From a virus (lineage: Duplodnaviria; Caudoviricetes): a stretch of DNA of 64,000 nucleotides. The notes beneath the pieces were generated by a model. It saw nothing but the letters and a program-made list of their open reading frames with translations. It had not been told where the DNA came from and did not search any database. Location: the IMG/VR virus record IMGVR_UViG_3300017388_000002, positions 1 to 64,000 of that record; one strand, written 5' to 3'. Positions 12,199 to 58,473 of this stretch are shown here, piece after piece (the stretch's first letter is position 1; each line of letters starts with the position of its first letter). Both the position numbers and the translations under genes were made by a program.

Positions 12199-13200
12199 TT
12201 AAGGACGTAAAACTCTTGATAGCATTTCAACCACTCTGGAAACTCCTCGATACTGAAGAGGCATCGGGTTTACCGGGATTGGTATAAAGTCAGAGGGGAA
12301 CTGTCGCCCTGGTTCCAGCATATCCCTGATCGGAATCTCTCTAGCAACCGATCCCGATTTCGGCACTTTCAGTAACCAATCGAAACCATTCTGAGTCCAT
12401 ACCTTGTGAATACTGCTGAGGGGTGTAAAATAGCCAATGCCAGACCCGCTAGTATCGGATGTACCCCAACAAGTTCCTATGTAAAAACCTGCATCATCCA
12501 TCAAACCGCCGCCTGATCTTCCAGGCCGTGGGCTGTTGTATTTAGTAACTAGATCATCGCTGCGGATGCCCACGATCTCGACATCGTAGTGTGCGACTTC
12601 TCGGCCTCCGTCACAACCACAGGAATGAACATGGGTGCCCACCGGTATTTGGTGGTTGACCGGAGCTATTGGAAAATAGTGCGGCACCCAATCGGGCTTG
12701 AATCTAATGAGACTCGTATCATATCCTCTGTTATTGCTCCAAAACAAAACTTCGGCCTTGTAAGTTTTCGGGCTGTCTAGCTTAGTCTCGTTACGATACC
12801 ACGTTATGACCTCACAAGTTACGGGATTTCGTTTAAGGTCTTCTGCTGATTTGGTGCCGCTCCACAGGTGTCCACAAGAGGCTACATAGGCGTATCCTGT
12901 ATTCTGATCAAAGAAGATTATAGTTCCCGATCCACTAGCCCCTCTAACGCTGATCTTCAAGCTGGAGGCCACCCATTTTCTAACTTCGGGGCCTCGCTGC
13001 TCTTCTGGTGCCCCGGTTCTTATAGAAGCGGTAACTGGATCGCTGTCTTCTACAAGCGGCATAGGGGCTACGCCGCCGTGTGAGTGGCTCCAAGATATAA
13101 TTTTGTCCGGCTTAGGGGCGAGTATACTATGCATTCCCAGCAACGTGACGAATGCTGTAGTCAACATCCCTAGAAAGGCTTTCCAGTAATTACCGTTCAT
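12199..13200 (-). CDS. N-terminally membrane-anchored trypsin-like (S1) serine peptidase
   Basis: Hydrophobic N-terminus; GSGTII, SCGHLW (His), YDTSL (Asp), PGRSGGGL (Ser). Confidence 0.85.
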   Translation of the reverse strand: MNGNYWKAFLGMLTTAFVTLLGMHSILAPKPDKIISWSHSHGGVAPMPLVEDSDPVTASIRTGAPEEQRGPEVRKWVASSLKISVRGASGSGTIIFFDQNTGYAYVASCGHLWSGTKSAEDLKRNPVTCEVITWYRNETKLDSPKTYKAEVLFWSNNRGYDTSLIRFKPDWVPHYFPIAPVNHQIPVGTHVHSCGCDGGREVAHYDVEIVGIRSDDLVTKYNSPRPGRSGGGLMDDAGFYIGTCWGTSDTSGSGIGYFTPLSSIHKVWTQNGFDWLLKVPKSGSVAREIPIRDMLEPGRQFPSDFIPIPVNPMPLQYRGVSRVVEMLSRVLRP

Positions 13201-13258
13201 GCTATAATAAACCTCCGTGTGGCTCTAACTATATAGCTTGTTGAAAAGGGAACCTTCC

Positions 13259-13747
13259 ATGATTACGTTATCGATTTCGCACCACATTTCACTCACCAAA
13301 GAACAGAGGTATAGTCTCGCCAAAGGCGAGCCTCAAAAGGTGGTTGGCATCAGCGTACCGGTTTGGTTCGAGAAAGGGTCTACCTCCGAGCCAGCGGTAG
13401 AGGTCTTCTGTGAATATGAGCTAACCAACCGGTCAGATCACTACCCCATTAAACGGAAAAATCGTGGCTATAAGATTAACATGCCGCAACTCCCAGAAGA
13501 CTACAAACCACCAAAGAAGATACCCGACGAGAAGTGGCGGCAACTGCCCGAAGAGTTGAAGCAACAATACTATAAAAAAACCAAAAAGCCGCCGACCGCA
13601 GAGAACCTGTTAGACGAGGAGGATGGCGGTTCGAGGTATCTAAGGTTCCTAGAGTACAACAAGGTGAAGGAAAAGGACAAAGTGAACAACATAGTTCACT
13701 ATGTCGAGATCATGACTATGGAGGAAATGATGGAGTCACTGGCGTGA
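13259..13747 (+). CDS. hypothetical protein
   Basis: AAAGGG RBS; divergent from the peptidase across a TATATA box. Confidence 0.65.
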   Translation: MITLSISHHISLTKEQRYSLAKGEPQKVVGISVPVWFEKGSTSEPAVEVFCEYELTNRSDHYPIKRKNRGYKINMPQLPEDYKPPKKIPDEKWRQLPEELKQQYYKKTKKPPTAENLLDEEDGGSRYLRFLEYNKVKEKDKVNNIVHYVEIMTMEEMMESLA

Positions 13748-23857: not shown

Positions 23858-25714
23858 ATGGATACCGAAATCAGACCCCCAGAAGAATACGACGATCTTC
23901 CCGTACCAACCGAGAAGTTCGAGGACTTCTACAAACAACATCATAGTGTCTATGAACTCATGGCGACAAAGGAATGGAAAGAAATCTACTCCCACTACTA
24001 CGAGTTCGACGCCTTCGAGCAGGAGATAATTATACATGAAACTGAAGCTCAAGTAAATGCGTATGACCCGCATCGGCAGCTTCAAGAGACGATTAAGTGT
24101 GCAAACAGCTTCACCTACTGGTGCCACAAGTACGTTAAGATCACACACCCGATTCACGGCTTGATTCCTTTTGTCCTCTATAAATACCAAAGACGAGTAG
24201 TAAGCGAATACACCAACAGATTCAACATTCTGCGAAAATTCCGTCAGGGAGGGCTGACAACTGTATCGGTCCTCTGGGCTTTGTGGCGATGTCTTTTTAA
24301 GACGGACCAGCAGATCATGGTCATGTCCAAGACCGACCGTGAAGCTATATCTGCTGGAGAGATTGCAAAGAAGGCAATGTACTACTTACCCAAGTGGATG
24401 ATGCCAGACATGGGTAAGCACAACGAACACGAAAAACAATTCAGAGATACTGGTTCCAATCTTTGGTTCTACACCCCGGAAGCTGCTCGTGGTAAGTCTA
24501 TCACGCTTCTAATCATTGATGAGGCGGCATTTATCGCCGATATGCAGAAGCACTGGAAGGCCATGTATCCGGTTATCGCAACCGGTGGTGCCTGCATCGT
24601 CATTTCTACGGTCAACGGCATGGGCAACTGGTACGAGGAAATGTACCACGAGGCCGAAGCCGGTGAAAATCCGTTCAACGTCATCGACTTACATTACAAG
24701 GAACACCCGGAGTATAACGATCCGATATGGGCCGCTGATACAAAGGCCAACCTTGGAGAAAAGGGTTGGAAGCAGGAGGTATTGGGTGAGTTCCTTGGCT
24801 CTGGTGAGACCTACTTCTCACAGGAGGCTATCAAAGAACTAACGGAAATTACAAAGGACTGTTTCCCGCTTCGTCAAGCATTTGCCAAATGGAGAAACAT
24901 CGTCAAGGACCGCAAGGCCAGCGATTGGGACGAAGGGGCTTTGTGGATATTCAAAGAACCGGTCGAAGGGCACGAGTATATCATCGGCGTTGACTGTGCC
25001 GAGGGCATGGGTGAAACCAACGATAACAGTGCATTCGAGATTATCGATAGTTCGACTCTGGAACAAGTTGCCGAGTTCTATAGCAACCTTGTGCCGCCCC
25101 ACATCTTCGCCCAGATATTGAACGAAATAGGTTACTACTATAACACTGCCTTGATCGTGGTTGAAAACATGAATCAAGGGGGTGCCGTACTGAGTGCTTT
25201 GCAGAATGATTTGGCCTACGACAACATCTACTTCGATGAGAGTAAAGGACGGCAAGGCATACCGGGTATCAAACCGAGCAGAACGGCCAGACCAATCATC
25301 CTTGAGACGATGCAACACAGGCTCATCAATAGTAGCGTTCGCATCAACAGCCACCGCCTTGTATATGAGATGAACACCTTCATCTACAATCCACAAAGCA
25401 AGAAGGCAGAGGCTCAGAAAGGTCGTCACGACGACGCAATCATGGCTATGGCCCTGGCGTTATTCGTCTGTGATTCCCGCATGAGAGGTATACCAATTGG
25501 GTCTCAAGTTCCAGAAGAAATGGTCAAGATATTCAAGACCGAGATATACGAGGAGATCAGAAGAGAAATTCTAGAGGGCAGACCGGAAGATTGGGCGACA
25601 AGTGGCGATACCTTCGACCCGATCCTACTTCCTGACCCAGAAACAATACTGCCAGGGATATCTTGGGATATTAGAAGGAAGAATGACAAACTACTAAAGG
25701 AGTTCGGTTGGTAA
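23858..25714 (+). CDS. terminase large subunit (T4 gp17-like)
   Basis: LYKYQ, RQGGLTT, LIIDEAAFI, ISTVNG, IGVDCAEG, HDDAIMA. Confidence 0.93.
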   Translation: MDTEIRPPEEYDDLPVPTEKFEDFYKQHHSVYELMATKEWKEIYSHYYEFDAFEQEIIIHETEAQVNAYDPHRQLQETIKCANSFTYWCHKYVKITHPIHGLIPFVLYKYQRRVVSEYTNRFNILRKFRQGGLTTVSVLWALWRCLFKTDQQIMVMSKTDREAISAGEIAKKAMYYLPKWMMPDMGKHNEHEKQFRDTGSNLWFYTPEAARGKSITLLIIDEAAFIADMQKHWKAMYPVIATGGACIVISTVNGMGNWYEEMYHEAEAGENPFNVIDLHYKEHPEYNDPIWAADTKANLGEKGWKQEVLGEFLGSGETYFSQEAIKELTEITKDCFPLRQAFAKWRNIVKDRKASDWDEGALWIFKEPVEGHEYIIGVDCAEGMGETNDNSAFEIIDSSTLEQVAEFYSNLVPPHIFAQILNEIGYYYNTALIVVENMNQGGAVLSALQNDLAYDNIYFDESKGRQGIPGIKPSRTARPIILETMQHRLINSSVRINSHRLVYEMNTFIYNPQSKKAEAQKGRHDDAIMAMALALFVCDSRMRGIPIGSQVPEEMVKIFKTEIYEEIRREILEGRPEDWATSGDTFDPILLPDPETILPGISWDIRRKNDKLLKEFGW

Positions 25715-31681: not shown

Positions 31682-32413
31682 ATGAAGATACTCAAAGAAC
31701 ATGCTGGAGTACCTGGAACTGTCTACAAGAACAGGCTAATCATCAACGGTTTTTGCGGCGGCATCTTGAATGAGATGGAGCTACATGAAGCCAAGGATGA
31801 CCTGGGCCGAAACACACTGAGGTTTCGAGGCAAGTTTCAGGAAGCCGAAGCCATAAACAAGAACAAGAGAATCTACCCATACGACGTTCTTGATACCAAT
31901 GTCAAGAAGTTGGATGAAATTCTCAAGAACGGCGGTCTAATCGGAGAATTAGACCATCCTGCTGATTCTATTATCCACTTCAAGGAAGCCTCCCACAAGG
32001 TTGCTAAACTCTGGTGGGAGGGCAAAACCTTGATGGGCGAGGGGATCATTCTCAGTACCCCATGTGGAAAGATACTACAGGCACTCATCAATGATGGTGT
32101 ACGTATCGGTATCAGTAGCCGTGGTGTAGGCAGTGGGAAGGTTAATGAGGATGGCGTCCTAGTAATAGGCGAAGGTTATAAACTCATTACGTTCGACGCT
32201 GTGGCCGACCCAAGCACGAATGCTGCTTTCCAAGAGAGAGTAGTGCATAGCAAGAAAGAACATACTTCTTCAGATATACCGCACAAAGTAACTGATTCTC
32301 GCACCAAAAACGAGGACCAGGGCATATATAAGAACAAGGAGTTGTTACTAGCCTGCTTGGGCGGCATTATTAGAAAACATACTGGCGAAATATCAAAAGC
32401 GAGGTTGAGCTAA
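31682..32413 (+). CDS. prohead core protease (T4 gp21-like)
   Basis: NKNKRIY, GELDHP, GISSRGVGS, TFDAVADPS. Confidence 0.93.
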   Translation: MKILKEHAGVPGTVYKNRLIINGFCGGILNEMELHEAKDDLGRNTLRFRGKFQEAEAINKNKRIYPYDVLDTNVKKLDEILKNGGLIGELDHPADSIIHFKEASHKVAKLWWEGKTLMGEGIILSTPCGKILQALINDGVRIGISSRGVGSGKVNEDGVLVIGEGYKLITFDAVADPSTNAAFQERVVHSKKEHTSSDIPHKVTDSRTKNEDQGIYKNKELLLACLGGIIRKHTGEISKARLS

Positions 32414-33394: not shown

Positions 33395-34831
33395 ATGACT
33401 AGTAACGCAAAGTTCCTAAACGAAGCTCGTGAACTTGAGTCCCGTTGGTCTCAAACTGGTCTGCTAGACGGTCTAAAGGACAAGTATACCCGCTCCTGTA
33501 CAGCCGTCTTGCTAGAAAACCAGAGACTCTTCAACGAGATCGCAACTGATACGAGCGACATTGCTCAGTTCAAGAGGATTTCTATACCGTTGGTACGTAG
33601 AATCTATCCTCAGCTTATAGCTAACAAGATTGTGTCTGTCCAGCCGCTACTAGGCCCAACCGGACTAGTATACTACCTGAGATTCAGATACAGCAGCAAC
33701 AAGGGTGCCATCCGTGGTGCGGATAACAACGGTGGTTTCCCGGCTGACGACGCCAACTCTCTAATGCAGACCGCATCTGGTGACGCAAACCTAGATATTT
33801 TCTACAGCCACCAGTTCGTTCAGAACGAATCTACCAACACCGACGTTGGTGATGATACGGTCGCTGCATACGCTCCATTGGAGCATACTCCGGTAATCGC
33901 CGGTACTATTACTGGTACGGTGTACGATGGCACTACCGCTGTCCAGACCTTCGTGGTCTCTGAGAACGGTACGTTCACCTTCACCGATCTAGGAACCCCG
34001 ACGAACAAGGCAACCGCAGGTTCGGTCAACGTCACCACTGGTGCCCTGACCCTAACCTGGAACAACGCTCCTGGTGATAACCACGTAGTCTTGAGCTACG
34101 AATACAACATGGAGTGCCAAGCCGATCTACCTGAGATCAATCTAGTAGTCGAGTCCGAAGAGATCGCTGCTAAGACCAGGAAGCTCAAGGCCGTATGGAG
34201 CTACGAGGCTCAGCAAGACCTACGCAGCCAGCACAACCTGGATGCCGAGGCCGAATTGACCGCTGTTCTAGCTCAGGAGATTAACCTAGAAATCGATCGT
34301 GAAATCCTCACGGACCTCCGTAATAACGCTGGTACGATTTCTAGCTGGGATTTCAACACGGCATTGGGTGACACCATCAAGGAGAAATACGAGTCTCTAT
34401 ATATCAAGATCGTAGAAGTCTCCAATGTGGTCCATAGGAAGACGCTACGTGGCGGTTGCAACTGGCTAGTAACTAGCCCAGAAGTTGCCTCGATCTTCGA
34501 GACCGCTACTGCTGGTTTCGCTCCAGCCCCGTCTGAGACCTTCACTAGCTCGCTGGGTATCCAGTACGTTGGTACGGTCAACAGCAGATGGAGACTGTAC
34601 AAAGACCCGCTATTCCCGACTTCCCAGATTTTGATGGGCTACAAGGGAGATAGCTACATGGACTCCGGGTTCTTCTATACGCCTTACGTGCCTCTAACTC
34701 AGACACCAGTTGTGCTAGACCCAGAGAGCTTCTGCCCACGCAAGGGTATCCTAACTAGATACGGCAAGAAGTTGCTGCGTGAGGGATCGAAGTTCTACGC
34801 CAGACTGTCCATCGCCAACTTCGTGATCTAA
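33395..34831 (+). CDS. major capsid protein (T4 gp23-like)
   Basis: LLENQ, IPLVRR, VQPLLGPTGL, TRKLKAVWS, EINLEIDREI, YTPYVPL, GILTRYG. Confidence 0.96.
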   Translation: MTSNAKFLNEARELESRWSQTGLLDGLKDKYTRSCTAVLLENQRLFNEIATDTSDIAQFKRISIPLVRRIYPQLIANKIVSVQPLLGPTGLVYYLRFRYSSNKGAIRGADNNGGFPADDANSLMQTASGDANLDIFYSHQFVQNESTNTDVGDDTVAAYAPLEHTPVIAGTITGTVYDGTTAVQTFVVSENGTFTFTDLGTPTNKATAGSVNVTTGALTLTWNNAPGDNHVVLSYEYNMECQADLPEINLVVESEEIAAKTRKLKAVWSYEAQQDLRSQHNLDAEAELTAVLAQEINLEIDREILTDLRNNAGTISSWDFNTALGDTIKEKYESLYIKIVEVSNVVHRKTLRGGCNWLVTSPEVASIFETATAGFAPAPSETFTSSLGIQYVGTVNSRWRLYKDPLFPTSQILMGYKGDSYMDSGFFYTPYVPLTQTPVVLDPESFCPRKGILTRYGKKLLREGSKFYARLSIANFVI

Positions 34832-43705: not shown

Positions 43706-44026
43706 ATGACTATCATTATTCCTGGCGAACCAACTCCTGAAGAAAATACCCCGCTTCACCCCGATGGGAAACCGATGTTGCGTTTCGAGGTAAAAATGCG
43801 GAGACACAAGGGCGGTATCCAGAAGGCTATCTTCATAGGTGGCGAGATGCTCGACTGGTCCGTAGATGTGTCGCAAATGATGGACGCTATGAACATGGGT
43901 CTGGCGTTCTACAGGGCCGTGCAACGTGATATAGAAAAACATTTCGTAGAAAGCGTGAGTGAATTCATTGGTAGGAAAGTGACTCCAGAGGACATCAAGA
44001 AAGCTATCAAAGAAGGGTGGATTTAA
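43706..44026 (+). CDS. hypothetical protein
   Basis: Coupled to lat. Confidence 0.65.
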   Translation: MTIIIPGEPTPEENTPLHPDGKPMLRFEVKMRRHKGGIQKAIFIGGEMLDWSVDVSQMMDAMNMGLAFYRAVQRDIEKHFVESVSEFIGRKVTPEDIKKAIKEGWI

Positions 44027-45288
44027 TGGACGCAAATCGAGTACATGATATCCTGTCGAAGAAAATCTGTTACCATCCAGAAGCGATAGTGATTGACCAA
44101 GACCTCAGTATAGGTTCTTGGCTCTTCGATCTAAGAGATGGTACGGAGTACCTCGATCTGTTTTCTCAATTTGCCAGTCAGCCATTGGGCTGGAACCACC
44201 CAAAACTACTCGCACAACAGGACCGTCTGGGCAGGGCAGCACTCTACAAAATCGCCAACCCCGACATGTACTCTGTAGAACTAGCACAGTTTGTCGAGGC
44301 GTGGTCCTCGATCACACCAGACTTTGACCATCATTTTTTCATCGACACTGGCACCTTGGCGGTCGAGAATGCCCTGAAAGCAGCATTCGATTGGAAAGCT
44401 CAATTGATGGGACTTAAGCAAGATTCTGCGGCTGACGAACTTCAAGTTATTCACTTCACCCAGGCTTTTCACGGCAGGAGTGGTTATACACTATCTCTTA
44501 CGAACAACATACACAACCCCCTCAAAACTAAGTTCTTTCCCAAGTGGCAAACATGGCCGAGAATCGGGGCACCCAGAGTAATCGAACACAATTTACGAGA
44601 AACCGAGCGACTAGAAGGCATCGCACTAGATGATATCCGCTGGCATCTGGCTGGTGGTAAAATGGCAGCTATCATCATAGAGACCATTCAAGGCGAAGGC
44701 GGCGACAACCATTTCAGAGGCGAATTCTTACGAGAACTTCGGACCCTAGCAAGCGACAACGAGGCTATGCTGATCTTTGACGAAGTACAATGTGGCATCG
44801 GGCTAACCGGCAAGATGTGGGCATACGAGCATTTCGATGTAGTACCAGACATCATTGCTTTTGGAAAGAAATCTCAGGTTTGCGGTATATCTTCCACAAG
44901 TAGAATTGATCTAGTAATTGACAACGTATTCGAGAATCCGTCTAGAATCAATTCTACCTGGGGAGGTAATACGGTAGACATGGTTAGGGCAACCATCCTG
45001 ATAGAAATCATCAAGGAGGAAAATCTAGTTCAGAATGCGGCCTTGGTGGGATCGTACTTCCTAGAAAAGCTCAAAACGTTAGGATTCGAGAATACTAGAG
45101 GCCGAGGTTTAATGATAGCTTTCGATGTGAAAGACAAACCAGAACGAGATGCCTTGATCCATAGGATGAAACAAAATAGAATACTTGCATTAGCTTGTGG
45201 TGGTAGATCAATCCGGTTTAGACCACATCTAACATTCTCGCAACAAGATGCTGATGAAGCCGTAGAGAGGATCAGGAAGTCTATATGA
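44026..45288 (+). CDS. lat: L-lysine 6-aminotransferase (class III PLP aminotransferase)
   Basis: YLDLFSQFASQPLGWNHP, GTLAVENALKAAFDWK, AFHGRSGYTLSLTN, ETIQGEGGDNHF, DEVQ, FGKK, RINSTWGG. Confidence 0.9.
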   Translation: MDANRVHDILSKKICYHPEAIVIDQDLSIGSWLFDLRDGTEYLDLFSQFASQPLGWNHPKLLAQQDRLGRAALYKIANPDMYSVELAQFVEAWSSITPDFDHHFFIDTGTLAVENALKAAFDWKAQLMGLKQDSAADELQVIHFTQAFHGRSGYTLSLTNNIHNPLKTKFFPKWQTWPRIGAPRVIEHNLRETERLEGIALDDIRWHLAGGKMAAIIIETIQGEGGDNHFRGEFLRELRTLASDNEAMLIFDEVQCGIGLTGKMWAYEHFDVVPDIIAFGKKSQVCGISSTSRIDLVIDNVFENPSRINSTWGGNTVDMVRATILIEIIKEENLVQNAALVGSYFLEKLKTLGFENTRGRGLMIAFDVKDKPERDALIHRMKQNRILALACGGRSIRFRPHLTFSQQDADEAVERIRKSI

Positions 45289-45538
45289 ACAGAAGGTCGT
45301 TTCTAAAAAGTGTTGCTGGTCTACGGCGGCTGTCGCCGTACCTGTGGCTACTGTATCGGCATTAGCCAATCCAGTAGTGGTTGAGAACCGCAGACTGAAA
45401 GCAAGATGGTCGATGGAAGCTGCTCAGGACTTGCGTGCCATGCACAATCTAGCCGCCGAGGGAGAACTTTGCGAAATCATGTCCAAAGCAATCAACGAAG
45501 AAATAGATCGAGAGATCATGCGGTCCCTAGCTGCCTAA
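45285..45538 (+). CDS. Tat-signal plus major-capsid-fragment mini-protein (1-nt frameshift near 45321)
   Basis: MNRRSFLKSVAG / TAAVAVPVATVSALA-NPVVVENRRLKARWSMEAAQDLRAMHNL...EEIDREI. Confidence 0.6.
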
Positions 45539-45541
45539 AAC

Positions 45542-45568
45542 AAAAGCCCGCCTTACGGCGGGCTTTTT
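45542..45568. terminator. bidirectional intrinsic terminator
   Basis: AAAAGCCCGCC-TTAC-GGCGGGCTTTTT. Confidence 0.85.
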
Positions 45569-45570
45569 CA

Positions 45571-46584
45571 TTACTTGCCAAATACCTTTTCATATCCATC
45601 GAGCCATCCTGTAAACTGCTCGAAGAAGTCTTCGCCCTCGTATTCTGTGTGGGCATTTACTGGGATATTAACGGCTGCTGGGTCTATTGCAAGCGGTGTT
45701 TGCTGACTTTTCGGAGTTTCCTTTTTGAGTCCGAGTTTGACTAGATCAACACCGTTCTTCTCCAGTTTTGCCGATAACTTGGCTATGTCGCCTTGGAGTT
45801 TAGGATCGTTGGCGGCGACCATCTGCTTCAACTCTTCGATCTTGCCTTTGAACTTCTCGGCGGAGGCCGCAGCAGCAAGGGCGGCAGAACCACCAAAGTC
45901 CTCACCATGCTTGCCAGCCGCAATGGAATCCATCATCTTCTGCAAGGCAGCACCGTAACTGTTGTGGAACTGAGCGGCTTTCATGGCCTGCATAGCTTGC
46001 GTCAGGAAGCCCACAACCGCCTTAATGGGGTCGTCACCGCCGCCTGCATTAGCACCAGCGTTGCCTGGAGTCTGGTCTGGAGGGGTTTGTGGAGAACCCG
46101 GAGGCGTAGCTGCACTTGGATCAGTAGGGGCACCCTCAGCACCACCGTCCCAGCCTTGAGCCAATTCCTTGCCGAATGGTCTGAAGAAGTTGGCTATGCC
46201 GCCTAGTGCATCGCCGAGTTTCTTACGCCCGTATCCGAGCAAACCAGCACCAGCACCAACGGCCTTCCTAGCTCCTCTACCGAACAAGCGACCTAACCCA
46301 CGACGTAGTGACCAGCCCTTTCCGGCGTTGTAGTCATCTCCGACCGTGGCTTCTAGATACAGATCGCCGAGAATTTCTTCTTTCTCAGACAAAATCTGTA
46401 GAATGGCCTTGTGGGTGTCTGAATCTAGATCGCTACATTCGAGAAGTTCGTATAGTTGGCCCTCGAAAAAATTCCAAGTGAAAATAACTGGATTGATGTC
46501 ATTTTCAACGAATACTCTGGCACTTTCCCAGAGCAGAGTATCGTTTTTCCTAAACTCACGATATTCCTTGAATGACTTCATCAC
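45571..46584 (-). CDS. putative internal head protein (MKSFKEY), Gly/Ala/Pro-rich
   Basis: CTS-like N-terminus. Confidence 0.65.
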   Translation of the reverse strand: MMKSFKEYREFRKNDTLLWESARVFVENDINPVIFTWNFFEGQLYELLECSDLDSDTHKAILQILSEKEEILGDLYLEATVGDDYNAGKGWSLRRGLGRLFGRGARKAVGAGAGLLGYGRKKLGDALGGIANFFRPFGKELAQGWDGGAEGAPTDPSAATPPGSPQTPPDQTPGNAGANAGGGDDPIKAVVGFLTQAMQAMKAAQFHNSYGAALQKMMDSIAAGKHGEDFGGSAALAAAASAEKFKGKIEELKQMVAANDPKLQGDIAKLSAKLEKNGVDLVKLGLKKETPKSQQTPLAIDPAAVNIPVNAHTEYEGEDFFEQFTGWLDGYEKVFGK

Positions 46585-47381
46585 GGTCCCTTCTTTGGTT
46601 TCATTGCCTCTAGCCTTGAGAATACGAATGGTATCACAGGCAATGTTTCACTAGAATCGAATGCATATGATACAGTGTTATTTACACTTTCATCTAATTT
46701 TTTCAGGTCGCTAATAGGAACTGCATAGGACACACCAAAGACCGGGTACATATGACCGTTGACCTTGGCCCCACGAATGCAAAACATAACTCCGACCAGT
46801 TTATTGTTGTGAAATAAAGGCCCTCCCGAATCCCCTGGAACCGTGTAAACGGAAGTCCGCAGGCAACTCTTGCTTTTGTCGCTTGGCAGCTTCACTAAAA
46901 CTCCTGTAACCTTTCCGAAGTCCACACGTAGGTCGTCACCCAAGCCGCCGCCGACTCGAACTACCTCATTACCAATGAACAGCTTCTCCTCGAAACCCAA
47001 ATCTACCGTATGCAGCTTCTGATCTGATTCAAAGGCAATAAGTGCCAAATCGATTTTCGGATCAGAAGCAATAACACGGAACTTGAACTTATCTTGACCA
47101 TCGGGCTGCGACCAATTTTTGTACTTGATGACATAAATTGTCGGGCATTCCATGCCTCTTACTACATGGGCACACGTCAAAGCGATGTTGCGATAGGTAT
47201 CTTCTGATTTCTCTGATCTCAGCACTACAGCCGTACCACTGCACTCGCTCCCTGGACAATACACCTGGAGGGTCGGGTATAGGCATTTCTCATGAAGGGT
47301 TTTATCGAGTTCCCCACTAGATACCGGAAGTGTAAAGAAAAGAACAAAAGACACAGTAAATAAAGGGATTGAATATTTCAT
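46581..47381 (-). CDS. secreted trypsin-like serine peptidase
   Basis: Signal peptide; LTCAHVV, DLAL, PGDSGGPLF. Confidence 0.9.
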   Translation of the reverse strand: MKYSIPLFTVSFVLFFTLPVSSGELDKTLHEKCLYPTLQVYCPGSECSGTAVVLRSEKSEDTYRNIALTCAHVVRGMECPTIYVIKYKNWSQPDGQDKFKFRVIASDPKIDLALIAFESDQKLHTVDLGFEEKLFIGNEVVRVGGGLGDDLRVDFGKVTGVLVKLPSDKSKSCLRTSVYTVPGDSGGPLFHNNKLVGVMFCIRGAKVNGHMYPVFGVSYAVPISDLKKLDESVNNTVSYAFDSSETLPVIPFVFSRLEAMKPKKGP

Positions 47382-47411
47382 ATTAGATATATATGAAACA
47401 TGGAGGTCAAA

Positions 47412-48050
47412 ATGTCTTCTAACAACAACGTGCTACTTGCTGTGATAGTAGCTTTGGCTGTCGGTATCTTTGGGGTCTATAAATGGAAGTCAGCGAAGAA
47501 TGCCGACCCACAAGACAACTGGCAGCAGTGGAACCCGCAAGATCAAGAATGGCAACAGTGGACCCCACTAGCCATGCCACCAGGGACTCCACCCACCGAC
47601 CCGCCGACCACCCCTCCGGGGAACCCTCTTGGCACTCCCCGCAATTATACCGAAGCTATAAATTTTGCCAAACGCAATAATAAGCAAGTCTTGCTCGTTT
47701 TCGGTGCGGAATGGTGCCAGTGGTGCAAAAAGTTGAAAACCGAAACCTTGGCTAGTGCAGACGTGCAGAGCAAAGTATCGGGCTACGTGTACTACTATGT
47801 CGATACCGACAAGGAAAAGGAGTTAGCCAGAAAATACAAAGTATCTGGCGTGCCGTACTATGCTATAGTGAATCCTAGCAACGAGTCGGTAGTTAGGCAG
47901 GGAAACGGATTCAAGTCTAATGTAGAATTCATAGCTTGGCTGGAAGGGAGAGACAACCAGCCGAGAAACCAACCTAGGCCGTTGAGGAGAGATCGGAGTC
48001 AGCCTCCGAGCCAACCTCCGAGGACTCAACCGCCTTTGGGTCCAGGCTGA
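47412..48050 (+). CDS. membrane-anchored thioredoxin-like protein
   Basis: TM segment; FGAEWCQWCKKL; YKVSGVP. Confidence 0.85.
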   Translation: MSSNNNVLLAVIVALAVGIFGVYKWKSAKNADPQDNWQQWNPQDQEWQQWTPLAMPPGTPPTDPPTTPPGNPLGTPRNYTEAINFAKRNNKQVLLVFGAEWCQWCKKLKTETLASADVQSKVSGYVYYYVDTDKEKELARKYKVSGVPYYAIVNPSNESVVRQGNGFKSNVEFIAWLEGRDNQPRNQPRPLRRDRSQPPSQPPRTQPPLGPG

Positions 48051-48094: not shown

Positions 48095-49345
48095 ATGCTG
48101 GAAGATGCGAAGAAGCAGCTATACGCTGCTTTGCCTTATGCGAATATCGATCCAGAAAGTGTGTTGAGACTTGAAAGCCCGGAGAAGACGTTAGAAGTAA
48201 GCATCCCAATGCGACACGACGACGGGACGCTGAAAATGTACAGTGCATATCGTTGTCATTACGACAGTACCCTTGGCCCGGCAAAAGGCGGAATTCGCTA
48301 CCACCCTCACGTCGATAAAGATCATGTCCAAGCTCTAGCCTTCTGGATGACGTTCAAGTGTGCCGCCGTGAAGGTGCCTTTCGGCGGGGCCAAAGGGGGC
48401 GTCTCTATAGACCCTAAGAAATTATCCAACCGAGAACTAGAGAGAATCAGTAAAGCATACATCAGTGCCTTTGCCGACTTCATTGGCACGGACGTAGACA
48501 TACCTGCTCCCGATCTAGGAACCAACGAACGAGTCATGGGGTGGATGTACTCGGAATATCGCAGAATCAAAGGCGGCAATCCGAGAGCCATCATCACAGG
48601 GAAACCTGTTCCCTTGGGAGGGATTATTGGCAGGAGTTCGGCGACAGGTTACGGGGGCTACTACGTACTAGAAACACTGCTCAACAAGTACCTCGATAAA
48701 GTCAAGATAGCTGGCAAAGAGAACCTGAGAGTGGCAATCCAAGGCTTCGGAAATGTAGGCTATTGGTTTGCAGAGAAGTGTTACAAGAACCATATCAAAG
48801 TGGTTGCGGTAACGAACCAATACGGCGGGGTCTATGATCCCAAGGGCCTCGATATACCGAAATGCAAGTTCAACATCGACAACTCCCAGGAGAAAGAATT
48901 CGGGCTGGGCACTAAAATCACCAACGAAGAGTTATTTGAACTAGATACCGATGTATTGGTTCCAGCCGCTATAGAAAACGTCATTACCAAAGACAACGCC
49001 AGAAAGATCAAAACTCCCCTCATATTTGAATTGGCAAACGGGCCTACTACCCCGGATGCCGATGAGATGCTCCAAAATAAAATAATCGTTCCAGATATCC
49101 TCGCCAACGCCGGTGGTGTTGTTGTATCTTACTTCGAGTGGCTGCAAAACAGGCACGCCGAGGAATGGGATGCCGAGAGAGTCAATCTAGAACTGAACAA
49201 GAAGATGAAGTATGCCACAGAGAAGATGATGGATATGTATATGACACATCAGACTTCTATGCGTACAGCTACCTACATTCTAGCCTTGAAACGGATCGCA
49301 GCCGCCAACGAGTGTTTGGGTAATCGAGGCTTTTTCCAGAGATAA
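48095..49345 (+). CDS. gdhA: Glu/Leu/Phe/Val dehydrogenase (glutamate dehydrogenase)
   Basis: GPAKGGIRYHP, PFGGAKGG, DIPAPD, ITGKP, QGFGNVG, ELANGP, PDILANAGGV. Confidence 0.92.
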   Translation: MLEDAKKQLYAALPYANIDPESVLRLESPEKTLEVSIPMRHDDGTLKMYSAYRCHYDSTLGPAKGGIRYHPHVDKDHVQALAFWMTFKCAAVKVPFGGAKGGVSIDPKKLSNRELERISKAYISAFADFIGTDVDIPAPDLGTNERVMGWMYSEYRRIKGGNPRAIITGKPVPLGGIIGRSSATGYGGYYVLETLLNKYLDKVKIAGKENLRVAIQGFGNVGYWFAEKCYKNHIKVVAVTNQYGGVYDPKGLDIPKCKFNIDNSQEKEFGLGTKITNEELFELDTDVLVPAAIENVITKDNARKIKTPLIFELANGPTTPDADEMLQNKIIVPDILANAGGVVVSYFEWLQNRHAEEWDAERVNLELNKKMKYATEKMMDMYMTHQTSMRTATYILALKRIAAANECLGNRGFFQR

Positions 49346-57352: not shown

Positions 57353-58174
57353 TTATATCTGAATCGGAGAGCCAGTAATCCTTAGATCGAAACCATCTAG
57401 AAACAGAGCGGCTGTATTTGGAGTTACAGTACGCTCAATCCAAACAGGGACACTCTCGCCCGCACGTAGTATACCTATGTTGATGGGGTTTATTTTTTTG
57501 GCATTGAGGAAATCTACGCCGAATGGCTTCTGGTTGTCAAAGTCTATAGACGGTGCTATCTGGTTAATCGGGGCACCGTCTACTAGTTTGGCGGCACTAA
57601 CGGTAAACGAACCGACCAAGTTAGTGGTGTTCACAACGGTAAGCAAGTCGTGGAACTTCTTGTCATCGTCGCCAGCAAAATGTATCTCGAAGAATCTAGT
57701 GCCTCCAGCGGTCGAGACGTTGACAAACACGCCGGATAGCAGGCTCAGATTATTCAGTTCGTCCTCTAGATTCTGGCCCCAGACGTTCAAATCGCTGTCA
57801 TAGTTCCAGTTGAAAGTTTGATTTTCGTACTGCATCACCAGAAACCCGCCAGAAACGGGGCCGCTGATTGCAACTCGCTGGATGTCTCTGGAGGTTTCTA
57901 CGCCAATTTTCAACGTGGCACCACCAAGGATATCGTTAGCCATGTAGAGCGAAACATCGAACAGCGAATCTGTGCTATGATTATTGAAAATGTAGATGCA
58001 GCGGTAATCTACCTTGCCAGTGCCAGCACTCTCCTTTTGGGTGTCGGGAAAAAGGTTGTTTAACAAATTACCAATTACAATTGCAGAGGGATCACCGCCA
58101 AGGGATTCGGCGGGATCATTGTTTGCCGTACCCCCAGAGTAAACGAAAACTATGTCATTCGCACCTATAGCCAT
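57353..58174 (-). CDS. probable virion structural protein
   Basis: YSGG..N.DP..SLGG, NNLF, DYRCIYIFN pattern. Confidence 0.6.
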   Translation of the reverse strand: MAIGANDIVFVYSGGTANNDPAESLGGDPSAIVIGNLLNNLFPDTQKESAGTGKVDYRCIYIFNNHSTDSLFDVSLYMANDILGGATLKIGVETSRDIQRVAISGPVSGGFLVMQYENQTFNWNYDSDLNVWGQNLEDELNNLSLLSGVFVNVSTAGGTRFFEIHFAGDDDKKFHDLLTVVNTTNLVGSFTVSAAKLVDGAPINQIAPSIDFDNQKPFGVDFLNAKKINPINIGILRAGESVPVWIERTVTPNTAALFLDGFDLRITGSPIQI

Positions 58175-58473
58175 TATTTCCCTCGTTTCAAAATGTACCG
58201 GACATTTCTAGGTGTGTAGCCCGTCATCTGTGCTATAGTAGAGACGTTAAAAAATGGATTTTCCGCCAGAGCTAAGACATTGTGGTGGTTTGTCACCTGC
58301 CGGTTCGGTCTTCCGTGTTTGTGCAGGATTCGATAGACTTCCGCAACGGATTTCCCTGTCTTTAGTGCGATGTCTCGCACCTTCATCCCTGGGTCGCCAA
58401 AATACATGTTGGCAACCTCGAACTCCGAATATTGCTTTAGTTCTGTCAAGAAGTCCTTAAAAGAGAAGTCCAT
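58174..58473 (-). CDS. tandem-HTH protein with CTS-like N-terminus
   Basis: MDFSFKDFLTE; VRDIALKTGKSVAEVYRIL and VSTIAQMTGYTPRNVRYIL. Confidence 0.7.
   Translation of the reverse strand: MDFSFKDFLTELKQYSEFEVANMYFGDPGMKVRDIALKTGKSVAEVYRILHKHGRPNRQVTNHHNVLALAENPFFNVSTIAQMTGYTPRNVRYILKRGK

What the first reader, a model, noticed from the sequence alone, without database searches (positions are those of the whole stretch)
45285..45538. Tat-exported mini-copy of the phage's own major capsid protein segment
Seen: ORF 45344..45538 (RRLKARWSMEAAQDLRAMHNLAAEGELCEIMSKAINEEIDREI) aligns with the MCP segment RKLKAVWSYEAQQDLRSQHNLDAEAELTAVLAQEINLEIDREI (about 34175-34305). An ATG overlapping the lat stop (ATGA at 45285) reads MNRRSFLKSVAG, a canonical twin-arginine motif (RRxFLK). 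A -1 frame change near 45321 continues it into a hydrophobic stretch ending in ALA (signal-peptidase-like site), then the capsid fragment. Inference: an exported or membrane-tethered capsid peptide, possibly a decoy for capsid-sensing defence, a dominant-negative against co-infecting T4-like phages, or an assembly anchor. The frameshift could be decay, a sequencing error, or slippage on the A5 run at 45305.
Basis: partly seen in the sequence, partly recalled or inferred. Interest (0 to 1): 0.75.

Follow-up and report, generated by a model that had tools for sequence, protein, structure and literature searches.

The report
Export-tagged capsid fragment gene, frameshifted here
A huge groundwater phage carries a small gene that joins a bacterial export signal to a copy of one piece of its own capsid protein; the copy here is broken by a one-base deletion, but intact relatives form a widespread and apparently undescribed family.

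Summary
Frame 2 of 45266..45538 matches the phage's own gp23-type capsid protein (29/64 identical, E 8e-18) and Pfam Gp23 (E 7.7e-17). ATG 45285, behind an AGGAAG ribosome site, opens with a twin-arginine motif (RRSFLK). The frames swap at 45321-45325, not at the A5 run.

An independent 36-kb contig at depth 380 carries the same sequence. It may come from the source sample. I found no slippery site. This copy is most likely a recent pseudogene.

The architecture is real. Intact homologues exist (85 aa on a 952-bp contig; 84 aa in a complete 527-kb phage). A profile search listed 34 short proteins with a twin-arginine N-terminus plus this capsid segment.

Between the two phages with DNA, synonymous sites are saturated, yet the mini-genes keep 45-49% identity. 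That argues for selection.

Context widens the finding. The 527-kb relative encodes a TatA homologue and a second RR-signal protein that is a diverged partial copy of its own terminase ATPase. Another 533-kb relative has 32 small proteins with a shared C-terminal RSIDD tail. Five are capsid pieces and one is a prohead-protease copy.

Function is untested. I favour an address-tagged capsid mimic. Six literature searches found no description.

The parts
44017..45288 (+). Upstream gene: class-III aminotransferase. Its stop TGA 45286-45288 overlaps the mini-gene's ATG.
   Evidence: Pfam Aminotran_3, E 7.7e-83; ORF list.
45274..45279 (+). Shine-Dalgarno-like AGGAAG, 5 nt before ATG 45285.
   Evidence: Read. 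The MCP gene has AGGAG at the same spacing. No such site precedes GTG 45344.
45285..45365 (+). Frame-0 ORF of 26 codons. The first 13 (45285-45323) are the twin-arginine n-region MNRRSFLKSVAGL. The rest is out-of-frame nonsense ending at TAG 45363-45365.
   Evidence: Alignment with P0003, P0149 and P0006.
45321..45325 (+). Site of the frame change (frame 0 to frame 2, equal to the loss of one base).
   Evidence: Frame 0 matches relatives up to Leu 45321-45323. Frame 2 matches them from Thr 45323-45325.
45323..45367 (+). Frame-2 hydrophobic h-region and c-region of the signal (TAAVAVPVATVSALA). A-L-A lies at 45359-45367.
   Evidence: An A-x-A motif is present in 24 of 34 family members.
45368..45538 (+). 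Capsid-derived part (56 codons plus TAA): a copy of the MCP E-loop return strand, short helix and spine helix.
   Evidence: AlphaFold2 model of relative P0003 has helices 46-55 and 58-84, pLDDT 85-98 there. The piece aligns to T4 gp23 residues 262-307.
45344..45538 (+). Mechanical ORF from GTG (64 aa), the form called on a 463,644-bp contig (P0002). It lacks the RR motif.
45542..45569 (+). Intrinsic terminator-like hairpin (11-bp stem, loop UUAC) and U run, between convergent genes.
   Evidence: Fold -19.8 kcal/mol, z -6.65, 0 of 200 shuffles as good. The consensus scan did not list it.
34127..34318 (+). The matching segment of the phage's own MCP gene (residues 245-308 of 478).

Best explanation
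The locus is a recently inactivated copy of a gene from an undescribed family of small phage proteins. In that family an N-terminal twin-arginine (Tat) signal peptide is fused to a copy of about 55 residues of one conserved piece of the gp23-type major capsid protein: the E-loop return strand, a short helix and the spine helix.

In intact relatives I infer the following. The protein folds into a helix-turn-helix in the cytoplasm. The host Tat translocon takes it up through the RRxF(L/F)K motif and a mildly hydrophobic A/V-rich h-region. It is then exported, and in most members cut after an A-x-A site, leaving a soluble peptide of roughly 55-70 residues outside the cytoplasm.

In this window the loss of one base at 45321-45325 cuts the RR motif off from the h-region and the capsid part. 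No Tat-targeted product can be made here. At best a leaderless 64-aa product from GTG 45344, which has no ribosome site, is possible.

Function is inferred, not shown. I take the family to be address-tagged mimics of conserved capsid motifs. Huge phages of this clade also tag partial copies of other hallmark proteins of their own (terminase ATPase, prohead protease). The most likely use is to engage a factor that recognises conserved capsid surfaces, such as a host sensor or a competitor's or the phage's own assembly partner, and to relocate it to or across the membrane.
For: Shown:
- Homology to the own MCP and to Pfam Gp23.
- A canonical RR motif behind a good ribosome site.
- Intact one-ORF homologues P0003 (85 aa) and P0005 (84 aa, in a 527,112-bp record rated 100% complete).
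- A profile search of 1.84 billion representatives gave 1747 hits at E<=1e-3. Of the 152 proteins then held (P0002-P0153: the 150 listed hits plus P0003 and P0153), 34 are short with an RR motif in the first 40 residues, 32 are MCPs of 300 aa or more, and 86 are other short proteins.
- All 35 of 35 aligned members hit Pfam Gp23. 12 of 35 hit PF10518 and 17 of 35 hit TIGR01409. Two of the 35 rows lack the N-terminus.
- Among 34 members: RR in 33, F two places after it in 33, then L/F/I in 34, then K/R in 26. The median uncharged run is 15 residues with mean hydropathy 1.8. A-x-A is present in 24.
- Selection: between the window and G001, synonymous differences are saturated (pS 0.76-1.03). The mini-genes keep pN 0.32-0.38 (45-49% identity). 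The same MCP segment is 98% identical.
- The frameshift stands in an independent Logan contig of 36,295 bases at depth 380, with 0 differences over 45100-45700. A 463,644-bp contig carries the same truncated 64-aa call.
- Context: G001 encodes a TatA/B/E homologue (45.9 bits against cut-off 21). It also encodes an RR-signal protein, P0159, that is a partial copy of its own TerL ATPase (36% identity over residues 61-227).
- G004 has 32 ORFs with a C-terminal [YWFH]RSID[DE] tail, encoded with all six Arg and all six Ser codons. Five are MCP pieces and one is a protease copy.
Against: Export was not tested and cannot be tested here. The host is unknown.

TatA was found in only 1 of 6 records searched. 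Two of the six are fragments. TatC was found in 0 of 2.

A piece of a cytoplasmic shell protein has no obvious partner outside the cytoplasm.

Isolated gp23 peptides are known as triggers, not blockers, of at least one defence (Gol/Lit, passages of PMC3014915).

Only four genomic contexts of RR-type members could be read: the window, G001, G002 and G003. They share no neighbours. The family is absent from LR756511.1, which has the closest MCP and the same aminotransferase synteny.

The selection argument rests on one saturated pair. DNA of the closest intact homologue could not be obtained.

A minor intact allele in the population cannot be excluded from contigs.
Confidence: 0.5

Rival explanations
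1. The gene is functional in this phage. The apparent frameshift would be a sequencing artefact, a minority-masked polymorphism or a programmed -1 ribosomal frameshift, so that the full Tat-tagged protein is made.
For: Frame 2 has no stop for 90 codons, and both halves still match relatives closely (76-80% identity to P0003). That is as expected if the gene is still read.
Against: An independent contig at depth 380 has the same sequence (it may be the same sample). A second large contig has the truncated ORF call. The shift site GGT CTA CGG has no X XXY YYZ heptamer, read by eye. The A5 run is excluded. Relatives need no shift.
Confidence: 0.1
2. A signal-less capsid fragment is the working product here. 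It would be translated from GTG 45344 and would act in the cytoplasm like the many signal-less mini-proteins that hold the same capsid segment.
For: One search shows signal-less short proteins with the same segment, among them P0004, P0019 and P0022. Gene callers chose the 64-aa ORF (P0002).
Against: There is no ribosome-binding site before 45344, while the phage uses AGGAG-type sites. The signal-less relatives carry their own C-terminal tail (KKKK..YRSIDDPWE), which the window's protein lacks. The 64-aa form would begin inside a signal h-region.
Confidence: 0.1
3. The family has an assembly role. The tag would hold a capsid-like module at the inner membrane (at TatBC before or without translocation) to seed, anchor or cap procapsid assembly, which in T4 starts on the membrane.
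For: T4 proheads assemble on the membrane and detach after proteolysis (passages of PMC9026906 and PMC9958956). The minis keep exactly the columns that are invariant in MCPs: W, E, D-L, H, E, EID-E. Some members carry further MCP motifs, such as P0007 and P0041.
Against: A Tat passenger ends up outside the cytoplasm, away from proheads. The genes are patchy (absent from LR756511.1) and lie far from the head module (window 10 kb away; G001 about 300 kb away). They are broken here without loss of the phage from the sample (depth 380).
Confidence: 0.12
4. The locus is a chance remnant: a stray MCP gene fragment that landed behind a leftover signal sequence and is drifting, with no function in any phage.
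For: The window's copy is frameshifted. The minis evolve much faster than the MCP (49% against 98% identity for the same segment).
Against: The same two-part architecture recurs in 34 short proteins from separate 50%-identity clusters. The RR motif is conserved. ORFs are intact in complete genomes. pN lies far below saturated pS.
Confidence: 0.03

Closest known systems
T4 gp24 vertex protein and other paralogues of the gp23 major capsid protein (Pfam PF07068)
   Same: A duplicated derivative of the phage's own MCP gene, kept in the same genome and recognisable by the Gp23 profile.
   Different: gp24-type paralogues keep the whole HK97 fold and are built into the shell. This gene keeps about 55 residues (profile 134-194 of 376) and adds an export signal.
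Bacterial twin-arginine (Tat) substrates (TIGR01409 / PF10518 signal)
   Same: An RRxF(L/F)K motif, a short mildly hydrophobic A/V-rich h-region, and often A-x-A. One relative's genome encodes TatA.
   Different: Known Tat passengers are mostly cofactor enzymes or folded periplasmic proteins (my knowledge). Here the passenger is a fragment of a cytoplasmic virion protein. In the window the signal is split by a frameshift.
Gol peptide of T4 gp23, trigger of the Lit protease of prophage e14
   Same: It shows that a short, highly conserved peptide of gp23 on its own is biologically active and is recognised by a host immunity system (PMC3014915, passages).
   Different: Gol lies in the first quarter of gp23. 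The window's piece aligns to T4 gp23 residues 262-307. Gol is not a separate gene and has no export signal. A separate piece in G004 (58150..58437) does align to T4 gp23 residues 98-134, which by my recollection overlaps Gol.
Capsid-targeted internal proteins of T4 (short terminal address peptide that sends varied cargo to one place)
   Same: The same logic of one short terminal tag shared by many unrelated small proteins. The 32 RSIDD-tailed ORFs of G004 follow it.
   Different: The T4 tag is N-terminal and directs cargo into the prohead (my knowledge, and passages of PMC9026906). The destination of the RSIDD tail is unknown. The tag in the window is a Tat signal.
Envelope-located superinfection-exclusion proteins of phages (such as T4 Imm and Sp; recalled, not checked here)
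   Same: Small accessory phage proteins sent to the membrane or periplasm, patchy among relatives.
   Different: None is known to be derived from a capsid protein. No sequence relation was tested or expected.

Membership tests
Gp23 major capsid protein family (PF07068) | Sequence match above Pfam's gathering score | tested here: met
   62.2 bits against 24.4, E 7.7e-17. PHROG 138 'major head protein', E 3.7e-16.
Gp23 major capsid protein family (PF07068) | Whole HK97-type body (the phage's MCP covers profile 1-347) | tested here: not met
   Only profile positions 134-194 of 376 are present. It is a fragment, not a capsid protein.
Tat signal peptide (TIGR01409 / PF10518) | Twin-arginine consensus motif near the N-terminus | tested here: met
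   RRSFLK at codons 3-8 of ATG 45285. RR in 33 of 34 relatives.
Tat signal peptide (TIGR01409 / PF10518) | n-region, h-region and c-region contiguous in one reading frame | tested here: not met
   In the window the h-region lies in frame 2. The feature is met in P0003 and P0005.
Tat signal peptide (TIGR01409 / PF10518) | Profile hit above the curated cut-off | tested here: inconclusive
   Relative P0003 scores 21.1 against 16.7 bits. 17 of 35 members hit TIGR01409 and 12 of 35 hit PF10518 at E<=0.05. The window's split N-terminus was not scanned as one protein.
Tat signal peptide (TIGR01409 / PF10518) | Export that depends on TatABC and on the RR pair | not testable with these tools
   Needs expression in wild-type and tat-mutant hosts.
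Gol peptide of gp23 (Lit trigger) | Same segment of gp23 | tested here: not met
   The window piece aligns to T4 gp23 262-307. Gol is in the first quarter of gp23 (PMC3014915 passage).
T4 prohead core proteins gp67, gp68, gp22 | Sequence similarity | tested here: not met
   BLASTP of the window piece, P0003 and P0005 against T4 gp67, gp68 and gp22 gave nothing better than E 3.
Programmed -1 ribosomal frameshift site | Slippery heptamer X XXY YYZ at the shift site | tested here: not met
   The site reads GCT GGT CTA CGG CGG, judged by eye. A downstream stimulatory structure was not tested.

The most novel reading that the evidence does not exclude
Huge phages of this clade keep libraries of address-tagged fragments of their own hallmark proteins: capsid protein, terminase ATPase and prohead protease. 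The tag is either an N-terminal Tat signal (supported in one genome by a phage TatA) or a C-terminal RSIDD tail. The fragments keep just the most conserved motifs, the ones that pattern-recognition immunity would see. They would work as baits that bind such sensors, or rival phages' assembly partners. The tag would then carry them out of the cytoplasm or pin them at the membrane. This would be a bait-and-remove counter-defence.
Probability: 0.2. Interest if true: 0.9.

Novelty: categorically new. Interest (0 to 1): 0.72.

Why it matters
Conserved virion proteins are the main things that bacterial immune sensors recognise. A phage that makes separate, address-tagged copies of just those conserved pieces would point to a new layer of phage-host or phage-phage conflict, or to an unknown step of capsid assembly at the membrane. 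It would also be, as far as my six literature searches show, the first case of a capsid fragment given a Tat export signal, and of a phage-borne TatA beside such a substrate. The family is small, easy to synthesise and directly testable. For this window alone the result is more modest: the copy is real but broken.

Tried and rejected
1. Complex prediction of the G001 MCP with the mature part of its mini-protein: no verdict, score 0.00 against a mark of 0.32. It says nothing either way.

2. My recalled idea that T4 core proteins gp67/gp68 resemble gp23: rejected.

3. Single versus multiple origin. The tree of the 53-column segment (90 rows) is unresolved. AU tests do not reject one clade for the MCPs (p 0.425) or for the RR-type minis (p 0.35). 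The five RR-type rows P0003, P0009, P0012, P0060 and P0103 were dropped by my length or anchor filter. The partial T4 gp23 row was also dropped by the anchor filter.

4. Getting the DNA of P0003's 952-bp contig. So there is no dN/dS for the closest pair.

I replaced it with a degenerate DNA pattern. It gave 3 matches in IMG/VR: G001 itself, L063 and L065. It gave 19 matches in GTDB genomes, 0 of which encode the family, about the number I estimated from chance.

6. Cultured phages. tblastn of P0012 against 50,697 records gave 2134 records with a match, all to MCP-length genes among those inspected, and 0 covering 80% or more of the query. P0034 gave no match.

7. ESM Atlas: no usable hit.

8. 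A second IMG/VR scan with P0005 found only itself.

9. RSIDD tail as a shared DNA element: rejected, since the codons vary freely.

10. A likeness of Y-x-x-x-D in that tail to type VII secretion signals is only a recollection and was not tested.

12. Supplements of papers were closed and not consulted.
Full report
WHAT THE WINDOW IS

The window is bases 1-64000 of a 122,654-base IMG/VR virus record (G000). CheckV rates it 24% complete, which implies a genome of roughly 500 kb.

It holds a T4-type head module:
- a large terminase at 23858..25714 (Terminase_6N, E 1.3e-9);
- a gp21-type prohead protease at 31682..32413 (Peptidase_S77, E 1.1e-27);
- a gp23-type major capsid protein (MCP) at 33395..34831 (Pfam Gp23, E 4.1e-84).

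The closest MCP in 50,697 phage records is that of the uncultured 595-kb phage LR756511.1, at 79% identity. The best cultured phage reaches 33%. The only sequencing run found to hold the locus is labelled a groundwater metagenome.

THE OBSERVATION

It is confirmed at the stated coordinates.

ATG 45285 overlaps the TGA of a class-III aminotransferase gene (44017..45288; Aminotran_3, E 7.7e-83). AGGAAG precedes it at a 5-nt spacing, the same kind of site as before the MCP gene. It reads MNRRSFLKSVAGL, then nonsense up to a stop at 45363.

Frame 2 is open from 45266 to 45538. It reads a hydrophobic A/V-rich stretch ending in A-L-A, followed by 56 residues. Those match the phage's own MCP residues 245-308 (29/64 identical, E 8e-18) and Pfam Gp23 (62.2 bits against a cut-off of 24.4, profile 134-194 of 376).

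A strong hairpin with a U run follows the stop (-19.8 kcal/mol, z -6.65).

WHERE THE FRAMES SWAP, AND WHETHER THE BREAK IS REAL

In an alignment with intact relatives, frame 0 matches them through Leu 45321-45323. Frame 2 matches them from Thr 45323-45325. Frame 2 upstream of that point (KKCCWS) matches nothing.

So the break equals the loss of one base at 45321-45325. It does not lie in the A5 run. By eye there is no slippery heptamer there.

Logan's independent contig of 36,295 bases, at mean word depth 380, is identical over 45100-45700. It may come from the sample the record was assembled from, and contigs drop rare variants. The same truncated 64-aa ORF was called on a 463,644-bp contig (P0002).

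I conclude that the dominant genotype carries the frameshift. The gene here is most likely a recent pseudogene, since frame 2 still has no stop.

THE ARCHITECTURE IS A REAL GENE TYPE

A word-indexed search found three small relatives among five candidates. One is P0003 (85 aa, 80% identical). It carries MNRRSFLK, an h-region and the capsid segment in one ORF.

A scan of IMG/VR gave 48 loci. Only one, L003, matches over residues 1-84 including the capsid part. Four others match only the signal. The rest are MCP genes, judged by the residues they match. L003 lies in G001, a 527,112-base record rated 100% complete. Its 84-aa ORF (P0005) is intact and has a ribosome site.

A profile of the three sequences, run against 1.84 billion cluster representatives, gave 1747 hits at E<=1e-3, with 150 listed. 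Of the 152 proteins then held (these 150 plus P0003 and P0153):
- 34 are short with an RR motif in the first 40 residues;
- 32 are MCP-length (300 aa or more);
- 86 are other short proteins.

All 35 of 35 aligned members hit Pfam Gp23. 12 of 35 hit PF10518 and 17 of 35 hit TIGR01409. P0003 is above the curated cut-off (21.1 against 16.7 bits). Two of the 35 rows lack the N-terminus.

Among 34 members:
- RR occurs in 33;
- F two places later in 33;
- L/F/I next in all 34;
- K/R next in 26;
- the following uncharged run has a median of 15 residues with mean hydropathy 1.8;
- A-x-A is present in 24.

An AlphaFold2 model of P0003 with this alignment (pLDDT 82) gives a signal helix at 3-28, an extended linker holding the RKLKARW strand, and helices 46-55 and 58-84. 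The ten cluster representatives I looked up are metagenomic, and no source gives them any name beyond 'hypothetical protein'.

SELECTION

DNA for two members was available, the window and G001. Their MCPs are 81% identical, with pS 0.76 (saturated) and pN 0.145.

The mini-genes are 45-49% identical, with pS 0.84-1.03 and pN 0.32-0.38. The homologous MCP segment is 98% identical.

So neutral sites have been randomised since the split. The minis still keep half of their residues, both signals and open frames. That is purifying selection, although much weaker than on the MCP.

The columns that are nearly invariant in the minis (W, E, D-L, H, E, I) are also invariant in the MCPs.

DISTRIBUTION AND CONTEXT

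The gene is patchy. LR756511.1 has the same 88-aa gene plus aminotransferase synteny, but nothing after the aminotransferase and no second Gp23-like match. In G001 the mini lies about 300 kb from the MCP, among unrelated small genes.

A degenerate DNA pattern for 'M-N/K-R-R-x-F ... W-S/T-x-E/D ... D-L' found 3 places in IMG/VR. They are G001 and two variants:
- one in a complete 211-kb record (L063, directly after what looks by eye like a tRNA 3' end);
- one in a 40-kb fragment (L065, where the signal is followed by the strand and the C-terminal GY.Y.PY.PL motif of the MCP).

The same pattern gave 19 matches in 185,579 species genomes. None encodes the family, which is about what I estimated from chance.

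tblastn of two members against cultured and deposited phages found no such gene.

WHAT WIDENS THE FINDING

First, G001 encodes a TatA/B/E homologue (PF02416, 45.9-46.3 bits against a cut-off of 21). No TatC was found in G000 or G001. No TatA was found in the four other records searched, or in the partial G000.

Second, a crude scan of G001 for RR-type N-termini found, besides the mini, two adjacent genes with a shared signal.
- One, P0159 (289 aa), is a diverged partial copy of the phage's own terminase ATPase domain. PHROG 2 gives E 5.6e-7. It is 36% identical over residues 61-227 to G001's 633-aa terminase ORF, and 32% identical to the window's terminase.
- In its Walker A position it reads SRQVGMTT by eye, with no lysine.
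- It has no other relative of similar length.

Third, many signal-less short proteins hold the same capsid segment and end in a basic run plus YRSIDDPWE.

One lies in G004, a complete 532,729-base record with an MCP of the same clade. G004 has five Gp23 matches and 32 ORFs ending in [YWFH]RSID[DE]. All six Arg and all six Ser codons are used there, so the conservation is at the protein level.

Five of the 32 are pieces of the MCP. They cover residues 55-102, 218-310, 316-368, 400-448 and 436-463, at 43-88% identity. These ranges skip residues 1-54 and 103-217, which I take (not tested) to be the N-terminal propeptide and the variable insertion. One more is a partial copy of the prohead protease (39% over 124 residues, E 8e-28).

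G000 and G001 have no such tails.

A third group of short proteins has the capsid segment behind an N-terminal M-K-N-Y-W-L-E-like motif.

HOW IT MOST LIKELY WORKS

Shown: the two-part architecture, the quality of the signal, the conservation, and the break in this window.

Inferred: Tat targeting and export of a small folded helical hairpin, and cleavage after A-x-A.

More weakly inferred: the purpose. The same clade tags partial copies of three hallmark proteins with two different address tags, and the pieces kept are the most conserved motifs. I therefore read them as tagged mimics. They would engage something that recognises those motifs and move it to or across the membrane.

That a short conserved gp23 peptide can be seen by host immunity has a precedent in Gol/Lit (PMC3014915, passages). 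There, however, the peptide is a trigger. This cuts against a simple decoy.

The rivals are an assembly anchor at the membrane, a signal-less cytoplasmic product, a still-functional gene read by frameshifting, and a neutral remnant. Each is weighed in its own section. The last is contradicted.

COMPARISON WITH WHAT IS KNOWN

By sequence the piece belongs to the Gp23 family, but it fails that family's defining feature of a whole fold.

It has the features of a Tat signal, except that in this window the regions are not in one frame.

It is not the Gol segment. It is not related to T4 core proteins gp67, gp68 or gp22.

Six full-text searches and the passages I read found no description of a Tat-tagged capsid fragment, of tagged hallmark fragments, or of a phage TatA. 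The passages came from PMC9026906, PMC9958956, bioRxiv 2026.01.04.697583, bioRxiv 2026.10.24.761521 and PMC3014915. The 2026 preprint on envelope proteins of huge phages has 0 occurrences of 'twin-arginine' or 'Tat'.

Subscription journals and supplements were not searchable.

VERDICT

The window's copy is a recently broken member of a real, widespread and apparently undescribed family. Its function is open. The context in two related huge phages makes it more interesting than the single locus suggested.

Noticed in passing
L066:1477-1692 (-) = G001:C1:308245-308391: A 527-kb relative of this phage encodes a 71-aa TatA/B/E homologue (PF02416, about 46 bits against a cut-off of 21). No TatC was found. 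TatA was not found in G000 (partial), G002, G003 (partial), G004 or LR756511.1.
   Followed up: partly
G001:C1:525193-526062 and 526130-526645 (L094:12193-13062, 13130-13645): Two adjacent genes share an RR-type N-terminus (LRRD[MA]LKIMGGAVLLPSLPAPKKE). The first is a diverged partial copy of the phage's own terminase ATPase domain, with no lysine in Walker A by eye. The second has no recognisable family or paralogue.
   Followed up: partly
G004 (532,729 bp), e.g. L108:1474-1761, L102:3914-4315, L112:1492-1737, L113:1480-1740: 32 small ORFs end in a basic run plus [YWFH]RSID[DE](PWE). Codons vary freely, so the tail is conserved at the protein level. Five are different pieces of the MCP, one is a prohead-protease copy, and the other 26 have no detected source. 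The tail's destination or partner is unknown.
   Followed up: partly
proteins P0020, P0028, P0032, P0037, P0043, P0083, P0072: Another set of short metagenomic proteins carries the same capsid segment behind an N-terminal M-K-N-Y-W-L-E-like motif. A further set ends in ..NWKKEGF (P0045, P0064, P0089, P0094).
   Followed up: no
window 46581..47381 (-), 47400..48050 (+), 48095..49345 (+), 44017..45288 (+): The mini-gene sits among metabolic and envelope-directed accessory genes. These are a trypsin-like protease with an N-terminal hydrophobic leader, a thioredoxin-like protein with an N-terminal membrane segment (both leaders judged by eye), a Glu/Leu/Phe/Val dehydrogenase and a class-III aminotransferase.
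   Followed up: no
L047:1896-2312 and L048:4953-5231: Other viral contigs encode small proteins that start with the same MNRRSFLK signal but have unrelated C-terminal parts. Tat-type signals on small phage proteins are therefore not limited to capsid fragments.
   Followed up: no
L063:3118-3375 (-): In a complete 211-kb phage record the RR-type mini-gene starts directly after a sequence that looks by eye like a tRNA 3' end (GGTTCGAGTCC...). It has an internally shortened helix.
   Followed up: no
proteins P0007, P0041; L065:3023-3256: Some RR-type members string together non-adjacent conserved MCP motifs. Examples are E-loop/spine helix plus the C-terminal GY.Y.PY.PL motif, or plus the N-arm motif, leaving out the parts between.
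   Followed up: partly
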